Under the pieces are notes generated by a model. That model was given only the letters and a program-made list of their open reading frames with translations. It was not told the origin of the DNA and did not search any database. The position numbers were made by a program, and so were the translations under genes. From positions 18,790-82,789 of the forward strand of contig CAZVLF010000004.1 of assembly GCA_964627795.1 (NCBI GenBank): a stretch of DNA of 64,000 nucleotides, read 5' to 3'. How positions within the stretch are numbered: the first letter of the stretch is position 1; the number at the start of each line of letters is the position of its first letter. This document shows, in pieces, positions 55,599-56,864 of the stretch. The stretch is from an uncultured Rickettsiales bacterium. GTDB taxonomy: Bacteria; Pseudomonadota; Alphaproteobacteria; Rickettsiales; CANDYO01.

Positions 55599-56864
55599 AT
55601 GCTTTCTAGTAAAATTACAGAATTAGTTACTGCTGTTGTTATTACTCCATCTGGCGAAAATGCTTATTCTATTTCACCAATAAAAAATAATCTTGGTTAT
55701 CATGTTAACGTTCATGGATCGAAAAAGACGGACATGATTTTATCTTTAAATTATCTAAAAGATAATTTTCCTAATCTTAAGTATGTTGCACTTGAAGTTA
55801 ATTGGTTTTCAACTTCAACTAATATTGTACAGGCTAAAATAGTTCCTAAAATTGAATCAAAGCAAAACTCAGCTAAATGGAAAGTGTCAAGCTTTGATAA
55901 AGAAAATACACTTGAAGTTTCTAAGGATTTTCAAGGTAATCCTAATTATAGTGGGACCCCGTCGGATGAAAGCATGGTTGAGCTATGCAAATATTTAAAA
56001 GACCAAGGTTATAAAATATTACTTTCTCCAATATTATATGTTGATGATCCGAAAAAAAGTTGGAGAGGAATGATAAAATCTTTATCACACCCAAAGTTTA
56101 TAGATAAAGAAATAAAATATTTTTTTGAGAATGATAATTTTGGATATAACAAGTTTATATTGCATTACTCAAGATTATTAAAAGATAGTGTGGATATAAT
56201 TTCAATAGGCTATGAACTCAAGGGAATTACACAAAGATATAATGAGTATTCTCAATTTCCTGGTATCAAAGCGCTTGCTAATTTAAGCCAATTAGTTAAG
56301 GAGTTAGTTTCTTCTAAAGTAGCTGTTACTTATATTGCAAATTTCGGAGAATACCACCATTCCGATGAAGGAAAATTCCCAATGGATTTGTTATGGAAAA
56401 GTATAAATATTATAACTATAAAAGCTAATTTCCCGCTTGCAGATAAATCAAGCTCATGTAAAGCTATTAAAGAAAGCTGGTCAAGCGGAGAGGGATGGGA
56501 TTACTTTATATCAGAAGAAAAAGAATCAAAATTTGATGACCCTATTTGGGCATGGAAAAATTTTAAATATTGGTATAATAACTATCATTACGAGGGAGAG
56601 GTGATTTCTCCTTGGATTCCCAATGAAAAACCTTTATTTATAATTTATGATTCAAGAGGAGATATAAACACAATTGTAGCAAGTGAAATTTATTTAAAAA
56701 ACCAAGATATAGTTTCGCAAAGCTTTTTAAGCTACTTTGATTCCAGGCCTTATCCACTTTATCCAAGTAATTGCAATTTTTGGTCTGATTGTTTGGAGTG
56801 GTATTCAAGCTCTGCAGTAAATGGTAAAGTTGATAAAGATACTGTAATTCCTGATTGTATTTAA
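55599..56864 (+). CDS. GTA TIM-barrel-like (glycoside-hydrolase-like) domain protein, resembling the N-terminal domain of RcGTA g15-type proteins
   Basis: 421 aa. By-eye matches to the GTA_TIM pattern: GTPSDESMVELCKYLKDQGYKILLSP, SWRGMI, FILHYSRLL...ISIGYELKGIT, GEGWDYF, WKNFKYWYNNYH. No other tail or GTA genes nearby. Confidence 0.5.
   Translation: MLSSKITELVTAVVITPSGENAYSISPIKNNLGYHVNVHGSKKTDMILSLNYLKDNFPNLKYVALEVNWFSTSTNIVQAKIVPKIESKQNSAKWKVSSFDKENTLEVSKDFQGNPNYSGTPSDESMVELCKYLKDQGYKILLSPILYVDDPKKSWRGMIKSLSHPKFIDKEIKYFFENDNFGYNKFILHYSRLLKDSVDIISIGYELKGITQRYNEYSQFPGIKALANLSQLVKELVSSKVAVTYIANFGEYHHSDEGKFPMDLLWKSINIITIKANFPLADKSSSCKAIKESWSSGEGWDYFISEEKESKFDDPIWAWKNFKYWYNNYHYEGEVISPWIPNEKPLFIIYDSRGDINTIVASEIYLKNQDIVSQSFLSYFDSRPYPLYPSNCNFWSDCLEWYSSSAVNGKVDKDTVIPDCI

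What the first reader, a model, noticed from the sequence alone, without database searches (positions are those of the whole stretch)
55599..56864. Solitary GTA TIM-barrel-like gene with no other gene-transfer-agent or phage genes nearby
The 421-aa product matches, by eye, the conserved blocks of the GTA_TIM domain found at the N-terminus of RcGTA g15-type tail/host-specificity proteins of alphaproteobacteria (SWRGMI; FILHYSRLL; IGYELKGIT; GEGWDYF; WKNFKYWYNNYH). The usual long C-terminal tail domain is missing, and no capsid, portal or tail genes flank it. The neighbours are rpoZ and cpoB. Either this is the last relic of an ancestral GTA cluster, or the glycoside-hydrolase-like domain has been domesticated for envelope or host-glycan chemistry.
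Basis: inference. Interest (0 to 1): 0.55.

Follow-up and report, generated by a model that had tools for sequence, protein, structure and literature searches.

The report
Standalone, nucleophile-less copy of GTA megatron domain
This gene is a free-standing copy of one domain (a sugar-cleaving-enzyme fold) of the baseplate protein of gene transfer agents; it belongs to an old, conserved side-branch found in a few uncultured Rickettsiales and has lost a key catalytic residue, so it is probably a sugar-binding protein and not decaying debris or a working enzyme.

Summary
ORF 55599-56864 (+, 421 aa) passes Pfam GTA_TIM (63.5 bits, cutoff 27). No other GTA or phage gene is detectable in the 64 kb window. 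The neighbours are rpoZ and cpoB.

The protein is not the N-terminus of g15. It is the internal 'peripheral' domain of the baseplate protein megatron (RcGTA residues ~230-744), without the channel-plug, adhesin-like, tail-docking and fibre-binding domains.

Most Rickettsiales relatives are full-length (~1100-1300 aa), many in g12-g13-g14-g15 operons. The 420-480-aa forms are a separate clade (bootstrap 0.99-1.0). In the only two genomes where this can be checked, they coexist with a full-length megatron. So this is an old paralogue, not a last relic or a split fragment.

The fold is clan GH-A, closest to GH113 mannanases. The window's subclade keeps the proton-donor Glu (E206) and sugar-binding Trp/Arg/Asp. 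It has replaced the nucleophile Glu (I349) and the strand-6 Tyr (N277) and deleted ~35 residues. It is still under purifying selection (dN/dS 0.14-0.17).

It has no signal peptide. Five of seven loci in this subclade abut Tol-Pal genes.

Best reading: a non-hydrolytic glycan-binding 'pseudo-glycosidase'. Dispersed GTA genes in Rickettsiales are already published; the truncated paralogue appears undescribed.

The parts
55599..56864 (+). Gene for a 421-aa standalone paralogue of the megatron (GTA g15) peripheral domain; a GH113-like clan GH-A TIM barrel
   Evidence: ORF. Pfam GTA_TIM 63.5 bits. Aligns to RcGTA megatron ~215-766. AF2 model pTM 0.84. Foldseek: 8GTC megatron E=2e-16, GH113 E~1e-9 to 6e-10.
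56214..56216 (+). E206, equivalent to the GH113 proton donor (PcMan113 E152 / AaManA chain residue ~151); retained
   Evidence: Profile alignment 'iigsElk' to 'CVGCEMT'. Glu in 65/66 long forms and in all short forms. PMC10992819.
56643..56645 (+). I349, at the position of the GH-A nucleophile Glu ('WFTE' in long forms; AaManA chain residue 231); nucleophile lost
   Evidence: Glu in 65/66 long forms, in all of subclade 1 and in P0131/P0153. Hydrophobic in 8 of 9 subclade-2 members, including the window.
56427..56429 (+). N277, at the position of the conserved strand-6 Tyr ('GIDAYFP'; GH113 Y204); lost
   Evidence: Tyr in 66/66 long forms and 4/4 of subclade 1; 0/9 in subclade 2.
56061..56066 (+). 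W155-R156, equivalent to GH113 substrate-binding W104/R105; retained in the window protein
   Evidence: Profile alignment 'kpWrGrit' to 'GTWRGEIR'; conservation; PMC10992819.
56736..56741 (+). F380-D381, equivalent to GH113 W282/D283 on strand 8; aromatic-Asp pair retained
56649..56660 (+). Approximate site of a ~35-residue deletion, just after 'IIY', relative to other family members. It removes the conserved 'GFPS.D...NQPN..DP' loop.
   Evidence: Alignment block 336-372. The deletion is shared by window, P0002, P0003, P0004 and P0005.
55986..55988 (+). C130, a cysteine conserved in short forms and Leu in long forms. It occurs together with C392 (56772-56774) and C398 (56790-56792), which form a CX5C pair.
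55298..55598 (.). 301-bp AT-rich divergent intergenic region shared with rpoZ. It contains a promoter-like TTGACA-16-TAGACT at 55541-55568 (+).
   Evidence: The consensus match is not above the shuffle expectation, so it is only a candidate.
56873..57535 (-). cpoB/ybgF (Tol-Pal system), convergent, 8 bp from the stop of the gene. The arrangement is conserved in L088.
   Evidence: TIGR02795 90.1 bits at the cutoff. L088 has a CpoB 59% identical in the same arrangement.
54887..55297 (-). rpoZ, the divergent upstream neighbour
   Evidence: TIGR00690 57.3 bits; PF01192.

Best explanation
The gene encodes a free-standing paralogue of the gene-transfer-agent baseplate protein megatron (g15). It is reduced to megatron's peripheral domain, a clan GH-A, GH113-like (beta/alpha)8 barrel.

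Shown:
- It belongs to a monophyletic, old subfamily of 420-480-aa proteins in uncultured Rickettsiales. This subfamily is distinct from the ~1100-1300-aa megatrons, many of which sit in g12-g13-g14-g15 baseplate operons.
- Where it can be checked (two genomes, both from the other short-form subclade), the short form coexists with a full-length megatron.
- It lacks the iris/penetration, adhesin-like, central (tail/hub-docking) and fibre-binding domains.
- In the window's subclade the catalytic nucleophile Glu is replaced by Ile, the strand-6 Tyr by Asn, and ~35 residues after strand 7 are deleted.
- The proton-donor Glu and the Trp/Arg and aromatic-Asp sugar-binding residues are kept.
- Close relatives show dN/dS of about 0.15.

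Inferred:
- It can no longer be built into a baseplate in the normal way.
- It no longer hydrolyses glycans by the retaining GH-A mechanism.
- It is kept as a glycan-binding module (a pseudo-glycosidase or lectin-like protein) that recognises the same kind of cell-surface or cell-wall glycan that megatron's domain recognises.
- Because it has no Sec signal peptide, it either acts in the cytoplasm or reaches its target by lysis or a non-classical secretion route.
- The repeated adjacency to Tol-Pal genes (cpoB, tolQRAB) points weakly to the cell envelope as its field of action.
For: Identity:
- Pfam GTA_TIM 63.5 bits; partial NCBIfam megatron match.
- RcGTA g15 (6TBA) alignment to residues ~215-766.
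- The megatron domain map from PMC7296036 places this in the peripheral domain (230-744).

Subfamily:
- The profile search of 1.84e9 proteins gave mostly ~1200-aa hits with the match at ~210-680 and only a few short ones.
- ORF lengths at 80 genome loci: only L005, L006 and L007 (475-480 aa) are clear standalone forms, plus one ambiguous 445-aa ORF (L084).
- NJ tree of 81 sequences: the short clade has bootstrap 0.99-1.0. Identity is 0.50 within short forms, 0.51 within long forms and 0.37 between them.
- Coexistence with a long copy: CAZJZY01 (L005, L006 short; L010 long) and chromosome OZ245841 (L007 short; L013 long). g12-g14 lie near the long copies only.
- Neighbours of long forms are DUF2460, hub and NlpC/P60, followed by a holin-like protein (weak, sub-threshold match) and a lysozyme. 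None of these occurs at any short locus.

Fold and chemistry:
- AF2 model pTM 0.84.
- Foldseek finds the R4C megatron, then GH113, GH53, GH1 and GH5.
- The family profile hits AaManA at E=2e-5, with E/E/Y aligned.
- GH113 catalytic and binding residues come from PMC10992819 and PMC9032380.

Selection: dN/dS 0.139-0.165 among P0002, P0003 and P0004; 0.098 for L005/L007.

No signal peptide: the N-terminal G19/E20/Y23 are homologous to internal residues of long forms and lie in a modelled strand/helix.

Synteny: cpoB in the window and L088; tolQRAB in L002, L085 and L086.
Against: - No biochemical data exist for any GTA_TIM domain, so even the long forms' hydrolase activity is inferred from conserved residues.
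- Loss of the nucleophile does not strictly exclude catalysis. A substrate-assisted or inverting mechanism is possible, and D351 follows the IIY motif in three of five close relatives.
- The AF2 model rests on only 11 sequences and has low-confidence segments (298-319). I could not inspect its coordinates.
- Coexistence with a long megatron is shown only for subclade 1, not for the window's subclade 2 or for this genome.
- The Tol-Pal adjacency may be a historical footprint and not functional. Holosporaceae GTA clusters also lie downstream of ybgF (PMC9254644).
- Conserved cysteines without a signal peptide are unexplained.
Confidence: 0.55

Rival explanations
1. It is still an active glycoside hydrolase, domesticated for envelope or host-glycan chemistry. 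It would use an altered mechanism: another residue acts as nucleophile or base, or catalysis is substrate-assisted on an N-acetylated sugar.
For: The proton-donor E206, E251/H253, E298, D149, D263, D381 and D397 are conserved across long and short forms. Purifying selection acts on the gene. D351 directly follows the IIY motif in the window, P0003 and P0004. Subclade-1 short forms keep both catalytic Glu residues, so a standalone enzyme is plausible for part of the family.
Against: The nucleophile position is hydrophobic in 8 of 9 subclade-2 members. The strand-6 Tyr, which is invariant in 66/66 long forms, is lost in 9 of 9. R156 is relaxed in 2 of 5 close relatives, and the conserved loop after strand 7 is deleted. 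D351 is Asn in P0002 and P0005, and Ser or Gly in P0006, P0007 and L003. There is no Asp next to the proton donor, as substrate-assisted GH18, GH20 and GH84 enzymes have (own knowledge of those families).
Confidence: 0.2
2. It remains part of the GTA particle as a separately encoded accessory subunit. It would dock onto the baseplate, for example through the contact that the peripheral domain makes with the fibre-binding domain in RcGTA, and add receptor-binding sites.
For: In RcGTA the peripheral domain contacts the fibre-binding domain (PMC7296036). GTA structural proteins also lack signal peptides and leave the cell by lysis. The short forms coexist with a full baseplate module in two genomes.
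Against: The gene is never linked to GTA genes at any of the nine short-form loci. Its neighbours are housekeeping or envelope genes. The long form already carries its own peripheral domain. The short and long domains are only ~37-40% identical even within one genome, and the short forms carry clade-specific cysteines.
Confidence: 0.15
3. It is the last decaying relic of a lost GTA cluster (a pseudogene in the making), or an ordinary fragment of a split g15 gene.
For: No other GTA gene lies in the 64 kb window. The catalytic residues are degraded. Rickettsiales genomes are known for gene decay, and some megatron ORFs are interrupted (L042, L082).
Against: The ORF is intact, with the same boundaries in at least 13 divergent lineages. 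dN/dS is 0.14-0.17. The clade is monophyletic and old. There are no flanking remnants of the N- or C-terminal domains. 63 positions are conserved with the long forms.
Confidence: 0.05

Closest known systems
Megatron (g15, Rcc01698) of the Rhodobacter capsulatus gene transfer agent, PDB 6TBA/6TEH; NCBIfam NF048004
   Same: Homologous over the whole 421 aa to the peripheral domain (residues ~230-744). A Rickettsiales family profile (alignment A2: long forms plus subclade-1 short forms, not including the window protein) hits it at E=2e-111. The motifs WF, KxWRG, FILHY, GxE, EYHH, SGEG, WKN and DxRP are shared.
   Different: It lacks the iris/penetration (1-46), adhesin-like (47-229), central (745-984) and fibre-binding (985-1304) domains. 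It is not in a g12-g15 operon. The nucleophile Glu and strand-6 Tyr are lost. It has clade-specific cysteines. It scores 193 bits against the model cutoff of 800.
[quoted passage not shown]
   Same: Same order of bacteria and the same domain. The genes are dispersed and not in one head-tail cluster. The TIM-barrel domain is under purifying selection.
   Different: Those genes are ~730-1350 aa with flanking domains and are often preceded by g12-g14 and followed by a holin-like gene and a lysozyme gene. This gene belongs to a separate short-form clade (bootstrap 0.99-1.0).
Megatron of marine siphophage vB_DshS-R4C, PDB 8GTC chain M
   Same: Best structural match to the model (Foldseek E=2.3e-16, TMq 0.78). 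The family profile matches it at E=8.5e-97.
   Different: It is a 1447-aa phage baseplate protein with both catalytic-position Glu residues present ('VGTEF', 'VWFTEYG').
GH113 beta-mannanases (AaManA 3CIV/4CD6, BaMan113A 7DVZ, AxMan113A 5YLH), clan GH-A
   Same: The nearest enzyme fold (Foldseek E of 6e-10 to 1e-8, TMt ~0.63). Pfam GH113 scores 30.2 bits against a cutoff of 27. The proton-donor Glu, Trp-Arg and aromatic-Asp residues align. AaManA and PcMan113 are also intracellular enzymes without signal peptides.
   Different: Sequence identity is about 12%. The nucleophile Glu and the Tyr are missing here. The substrate is unknown, and nothing suggests mannan.
Catalytically inactive glycosidase-fold proteins that act as lectins or binders (for example GH18 chitinase-like lectins); named from own knowledge as a functional analogy only
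   Same: A glycosidase barrel that keeps its binding residues, has lost a catalytic residue and remains under selection.
   Different: A different GH family and different organisms. There is no evidence of homology, and binding has not been tested here.

Membership tests
Pfam GTA_TIM (PF13547) | Score at or above the gathering threshold (27 bits) | tested here: met
   63.5 bits, E=2.8e-17, aa 181-347 against profile positions 1-210 of 299. The match stops where the window's subclade has its deletion.
Megatron / GTA g15 (NCBIfam NF048004 equivalog) | Full-length multidomain architecture (iris, adhesin-like, peripheral, central, fibre-binding); model cutoff 800 bits | tested here: not met
   193.5 bits. 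Only the peripheral domain is present. No remnants of the other domains are found in the window.
Megatron / GTA g15 | Location in a baseplate module with g12 (DUF2460), g13 (hub) and g14 (NlpC/P60) | tested here: not met
   23 of 55 long-form loci with enough upstream sequence have this module. None of the short-form loci has it, nor does the window.
RcGTA-type gene transfer agent (whole system) | Presence of terminase, portal, protease, capsid and tail genes in the same genome | not testable with these tools
   They are absent from the 64 kb window. Two related genomes that carry short forms do hold g12-g15 elsewhere.
Clan GH-A / family GH113 glycoside hydrolases | (beta/alpha)8 barrel fold | tested here: met
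   The AF2 model (pTM 0.84) has eight strands alternating with helices. After megatron, the top Foldseek enzyme hits are all GH-A families. Pfam GH113 scores 30.2 bits against 27.
Clan GH-A / family GH113 glycoside hydrolases | Proton-donor Glu at the end of strand 4 | tested here: met
   E206 aligns with the AaManA 'VGCE' Glu. It is invariant in the short forms and present in 65/66 long forms.
Clan GH-A / family GH113 glycoside hydrolases | Nucleophile Glu at the end of strand 7 | tested here: not met
   Long forms have 'WFTE' aligned to AaManA 'FFME' (Glu at chain residue 231). The window has I349 ('LFIIYD'). No acidic residue is conserved there in subclade 2.
Clan GH-A / family GH113 glycoside hydrolases | Conserved strand-6 Tyr (GH113 Y204) and substrate-binding Trp/Arg and Trp/Asp | tested here: inconclusive
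   The Tyr is lost (N277; 0/9 in subclade 2). W155 and R156 are kept, and F380 and D381 are kept. The site is partly intact.
Clan GH-A / family GH113 glycoside hydrolases | Measured glycosidase activity | not testable with these tools
   This needs an enzyme assay.
Short standalone megatron-peripheral-domain paralogues (subfamily defined in this report) | 420-480 aa, own start and stop, monophyletic apart from the long forms, conserved C130 and a CX5C pair (absent from the P0131/P0153 branch), no GTA neighbours | tested here: met
   The window groups with P0002-P0005 inside subclade 2 (bootstrap 0.965).

The most novel reading that the evidence does not exclude
A phage-derived baseplate glycosidase domain was duplicated early in Rickettsiales evolution, cut free, and converted into a catalytically dead glycan binder. 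The cell now uses it for itself: for example, to bind or mask its own peptidoglycan or LPS glycans in concert with the Tol-Pal envelope machinery, to sequester immunogenic cell-wall fragments from the eukaryotic host, or to act as a decoy that blocks GTA or phage adsorption. This would be a new case of a virus structural-enzyme domain exapted as a cellular pseudo-enzyme in obligate intracellular bacteria.
Probability: 0.2. Interest if true: 0.7.

Novelty: new variant of a known kind. Interest (0 to 1): 0.42.

Why it matters
GTA genes in obligate intracellular bacteria are a puzzle. They are conserved, yet gene exchange in small clonal populations seems of little use, and repurposing for host interaction has been proposed (PMC9254644). 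A conserved paralogue of the baseplate glycosidase domain that has been stripped of every assembly domain and of its nucleophile is a concrete, testable example of such repurposing.

The analysis also gives a residue-level assignment of the GTA_TIM / megatron peripheral domain to clan GH-A, GH113-like, with proton-donor and nucleophile Glu residues each present in 65 of the 66 Rickettsiales long forms aligned and conserved in RcGTA and phage R4C. This predicts that canonical megatrons are active retaining glycosidases. The papers I read do not state this: the RcGTA structure paper does not contain the words 'glycoside' or 'hydrolase'.

Tried and rejected
- I first assumed that the 80 genome loci were all standalone forms, because the scan reports only the part that matches the 421-aa query. 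Measuring the ORFs and the representative search showed that about 75 of them are full-length megatrons. I dropped the idea that 'the standalone form is widespread in Rickettsiales'.
- Two encoding-contig look-ups with longest-ORF translations failed, probably because the called start codons differ. I annotated the window with Pfam directly instead.
- I tried to name the organism by cluster look-up (no names), by a paper search for the SRA run (none) and by identity of housekeeping proteins to named loci (not discriminating). It remains an uncultured, AT-rich, Ank-protein-bearing Rickettsiales-like bacterium. Its genome is not among the species representatives.
- The metagenome scan for more subclade-2 members gave only one (L088 = P0007).
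- I considered a signal peptide in 'LVTAVVI' and rejected it. The segment is homologous to internal residues of long forms and is modelled as part of the fold.
- I considered that the 1358-aa neighbour in L003/L004 might be megatron-derived, because of a marginal tblastn hit at E=0.003. Pfam shows only weak HEAT and coiled-coil matches, so I rejected it.
- I considered recent horizontal acquisition and rejected it. The gene's GC content equals the window's GC content, and the synteny is old.
- The promoter-like site at 55541-55568 is not above the shuffle expectation.
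Full report
**1. What is there**

Its profile matches are:
- Pfam GTA_TIM: 63.5 bits against a cutoff of 27.
- Pfam GH113: 30.2 bits against a cutoff of 27.
- NCBIfam 'baseplate multidomain protein megatron': a partial match, 193.5 bits against a cutoff of 800.
- A PHROG tail-protein family: E=1.6e-38.

The gene's GC content (30.2%) is that of the window. The neighbours are rpoZ (divergent, 301-bp spacer) and cpoB/ybgF (convergent, 8-bp gap). Both were confirmed with NCBIfam.

I annotated every non-overlapping ORF of at least 70 aa in the window with Pfam. 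I scanned the Pfam-less ORFs with PHROGs. I also searched the window by tblastn with Rickettsiales g12, g13, g14, holin-like protein, lysozyme and the N- and C-terminal parts of megatron. Nothing else related to phages or GTAs is detectable in 64 kb.

**2. Which part of g15 it is**

Against solved structures, the protein aligns with residues ~215-766 of the 1304-aa RcGTA megatron (6TBA/6TEH) and with the phage R4C megatron (8GTC). The RcGTA structure paper divides megatron into five domains (PMC7296036):
- iris/penetration, 1-46
- adhesin-like, 47-229
- peripheral, 230-744
- central, 745-984
- fibre-binding, 985-1304

The central domain docks onto the distal tail and hub. The iris closes the tail channel. 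The window protein is the peripheral domain alone, so it is missing both an N-terminal and a C-terminal part.

**3. Relatives: long forms are the rule and short forms are a separate clade**

The word-indexed search found only ten relatives besides the query itself, nine of them 318-467 aa at 41-53% identity and one (P0011) 569 aa at 33%. The exhaustive profile search of 1.84 billion representatives gave 1646 hits. Most of the top 150 are 1100-1300 aa, with the match at ~210-680.

The genome scan returned 80 loci, nearly all labelled Rickettsiales: Rickettsia, Orientia chuto, Midichloriaceae, Lyticum, Xenohaliotis, Deianiraeaceae and Sarmatiella. Measuring the reading frames showed that only L005, L006 and L007 (475-480 aa) are clear standalone forms, plus one ambiguous 445-aa ORF (L084). 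The rest are ~730-1350 aa.

The long forms have a conserved same-strand neighbourhood, which Pfam identifies as follows:
- DUF2460 (g12)
- hub N-terminal domain plus BR0599 (g13)
- NlpC/P60 (g14)
- then megatron
- then a holin-like protein (only a weak, sub-threshold GTA_holin_3TM match, 17.2 bits against a cutoff of 24.8)
- then a Phage_lysozyme

This neighbourhood occurs in 23 of the 55 long-form loci that have enough upstream sequence. It occurs in none of the short-form loci.

An NJ tree of the barrel region (81 sequences, 472 columns) places all short forms in one group, with bootstrap 0.99 (1.0 for the core 13). It resolves subclade 1 (L005-L007, P0012) and subclade 2 (window, P0002-P0009, L003), the latter with bootstrap 0.965. 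Mean identity is 0.50 within short forms, 0.51 within long forms and 0.37 between them.

Two assemblies hold both kinds:
- CAZJZY01 has L005 and L006 (short) and L010 (long, 1093 aa).
- The complete chromosome OZ245841 has L007 (short, at 0.63 Mb) and L013 (long, 1094 aa, at 1.16 Mb).

In both, g12-g14 lie within about 6 kb of the long copies only. The short gene is therefore an old paralogue. It is not what remains after a cluster has decayed, and it is not a piece of a split gene.

**4. Published context**

Dispersed GTA genes in Rickettsiales are already known.
- George et al. report broad conservation of capsid/portal, distal tail/hub and megatron, several clusters per genome, and purifying selection on 'the megatron TIM barrel domain'. 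They also report that Holosporaceae GTA clusters lie downstream of ybgF (PMC9254644).
- Shakya et al. found only small clusters, mostly singletons, in Rickettsiales (PMC5721377).

A GTA_TIM gene away from capsid genes is thus ordinary for this order. I found no description of a truncated paralogue clade. The library is incomplete, and the relevant supplement was not held.

**5. Fold and active site**

The AF2 model (11-sequence alignment; mean pLDDT 75.9, pTM 0.84) shows eight strands alternating with helices. After the R4C megatron (E=2e-16, TMq 0.78), Foldseek returns GH113 beta-mannanases (E of 6e-10 to 1e-8, TMt ~0.63), then GH53, GH1, GH5 and GH2. All of these belong to clan GH-A.

A profile of 27 family members (alignment A2) hits the GH113 enzyme AaManA at E=2e-5, with these alignments:
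- 'IGSE' aligns with 'VGCE' (chain residue ~151).
- 'IWFTEyGFPS' aligns with 'LFFMEVGCPS' (Glu at chain residue 231).
- 'DAYFP' aligns with 'SAYYP'.

GH113 enzymes are retaining Glu/Glu enzymes (PMC9032380). In PcMan113 the proton donor is E152, the nucleophile is E232, and the strictly conserved binding residues include W104, R105, Y204, W282 and D283 (PMC10992819).

Counting these positions gives the following:

| Position | Long forms | Subclade 1 | Subclade 2 (window's) | Window residue |
|---|---|---|---|---|
| Proton-donor Glu | 65/66 | 4/4 | 9/9 | E206 |
| Nucleophile Glu | 65/66 | 4/4 | 1/9 (P0009 only) | I349 |
| Strand-6 Tyr | 66/66 | 4/4 | 0/9 | N277 |
| Arg | 65/66 | 3/4 | 6/9 (3/5 among the window's closest relatives) | R156 |
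| Trp | 65/66 | 4/4 | 9/9 | W155 |
| Strand-8 Asp | 66/66 | 4/4 | 9/9 | D381 |

The window and P0002-P0005 additionally lack about 35 residues after strand 7. This removes the conserved 'GFPS.D...NQPN..DP' loop.

I draw two inferences. First, canonical megatron peripheral domains probably are active retaining glycosidases. Second, the window's protein cannot use that mechanism but keeps much of the sugar-binding site.

**6. Selection and other features**

dN/dS by the Nei-Gojobori method is 0.165, 0.139 and 0.156 among P0002, P0003 and P0004 (dS 0.6-1.2). It is 0.098 for L005/L007. This is purifying selection acting on the nucleophile-less form.

The protein nevertheless evolves faster than its neighbours. 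P0003 and P0005 are 50% identical, against 86, 81, 77, 71 and 60% for TolQ, TolR, TolB, the C26 peptidase and TolA.

63 positions are conserved at 90% or more in both short and long forms. The short forms have their own conserved C130 and a CX5C pair (C392, C398). Subclade 2 also has C287, C420 and, in most members but not the window protein, an acidic C-terminal tail. The long-form motif 'DWSEY' becomes 'NxGEY' in the short forms.

There is no signal peptide. The N-terminal residues G19, E20 and Y23 correspond to internal residues of long forms and belong to the modelled fold.

**7. Gene neighbourhood of the short forms**

- The window and L088 (P0007, which lies in a different branch of subclade 2) share the convergent cpoB. 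The two CpoB proteins are 59% identical.
- L002, L085 and L086 (P0005, P0003, P0002) share a divergent tolQ-tolR-tolA-tolB and a downstream C26 peptidase.
- L003 and L088 share an upstream EamA transporter.
- The subclade-1 loci have an AsmA-family gene, an MFS/AmpG-like gene, glycosyltransferases and, in L006, a tandem 1728-aa GTA_TIM paralogue.
- One long form (L075) is also divergent from tolQRA.

An ancestral arrangement of tolBARQ (leftward), the short gene (rightward) and cpoB (leftward) would explain both subclade-2 arrangements with one placement. It is open whether the link with Tol-Pal is functional or a footprint of an old GTA location. In Holosporaceae, GTA clusters lie downstream of ybgF.

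**8. Verdict**

The identity is firm: a standalone paralogue of the megatron peripheral domain, GH113-like, in an uncultured Rickettsiales-type genome.

The most likely mode of action is non-hydrolytic glycan binding by a pseudo-glycosidase that no longer assembles into a baseplate. This is an inference from domain loss, active-site loss and purifying selection. The target glycan and the cellular location are unknown.

The rivals are an active enzyme with altered chemistry, a separately encoded accessory subunit of the GTA particle, and a decaying relic. They are ranked in the rival-explanations section of this report.

I could not test whether this genome has a full-length megatron or capsid and portal genes elsewhere. 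That test, an outgroup-rooted tree, and enzyme and binding assays are the decisive next steps.

Noticed in passing
L006:9189-14375 (+): A 1728-aa protein with a strong GTA_TIM domain (200.8 bits) lies in tandem directly after a short form (7648-9090) and after a GT2 glycosyltransferase. It has a 23-residue Cys-containing insertion after the WF strand and a 1065-aa C-terminal part. It appears to be a third architectural variant of megatron in one genome.
   Followed up: partly
L035, L037, L040, L047, L050, L075, L083 (megatron ORFs of 870-890 aa): A class of megatron genes in Rickettsia, Bandiella and Midichloriaceae MAGs keeps the N-terminal part, the barrel and ~220 further residues, but lacks roughly the last 300 aa (the fibre-binding region). 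I did not check whether that part is encoded separately.
   Followed up: no
L042 and L082 (around position 10001-10300): The megatron reading frame is interrupted inside the barrel region (ORFs of 260 and 333 aa). These are possible pseudogenes or assembly errors.
   Followed up: no
Long-form loci, e.g. L009:12996-14912, L016:12916-14126, L050:12066-12965: In Rickettsiales, megatron is typically followed by one or two small holin-like membrane proteins (31 loci; only a weak, sub-threshold GTA_holin_3TM match, 17.2 bits against a cutoff of 24.8) and a Phage_lysozyme gene (22 loci). The lysis genes are therefore linked to the baseplate module, unlike in RcGTA, where they are at a separate locus.
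   Followed up: partly
L075:7147-12046: An 883-aa megatron in a MAG labelled Rickettsia is directly divergent from tolQ-tolR-tolA. This is the same junction as in the short-form loci L002, L085 and L086. Holosporaceae GTA clusters are reported downstream of ybgF (PMC9254644). The recurrent link between GTA genes and Tol-Pal genes is unexplained.
   Followed up: partly
window 23774-23849 and 42754-42830: tRNA-Ala(TGC) and tRNA-Ile(GAT), which usually sit in the rRNA operon spacer, are 19 kb apart with no rRNA gene detected between them by protein annotation. This is consistent with the unlinked rRNA genes typical of Rickettsiales (own knowledge).
   Followed up: no
window 6422-6709 (-) and 36031-36612 (+): A 95-aa HtrL_YibB fragment next to a GT2 gene, and a 193-aa ORF matching only part of the Gly_transf_sug domain. 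They look like truncated glycosyltransferase-related genes. An intact Caps_synth/Gly_transf_sug gene (53241-54884) lies two genes upstream of the finding.
   Followed up: no
window 9695-11404 (+), 13570-15111 (-), 37392-42088: Several sizeable ORFs have no significant Pfam (13570-15111 has only a sub-threshold SMC_N match, 19.3 bits against a cutoff of 40) or PHROG match. They include a 479-aa Ser/Asn/Lys-rich protein (38627-40066) and three short adjacent ORFs (40689-42088). They may be lineage-specific effectors, together with a DnaJ-ankyrin protein (45515-46654) and a VWA-domain protein (34278-35738).
   Followed up: no
window 55599-56864 versus L002, L085: The short form diverges much faster than its syntenic neighbours: 50% identity between P0003 and P0005, against 60-86% for TolA, TolB, TolR, TolQ and the C26 peptidase. 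It nevertheless has low dN/dS among close relatives.
   Followed up: partly
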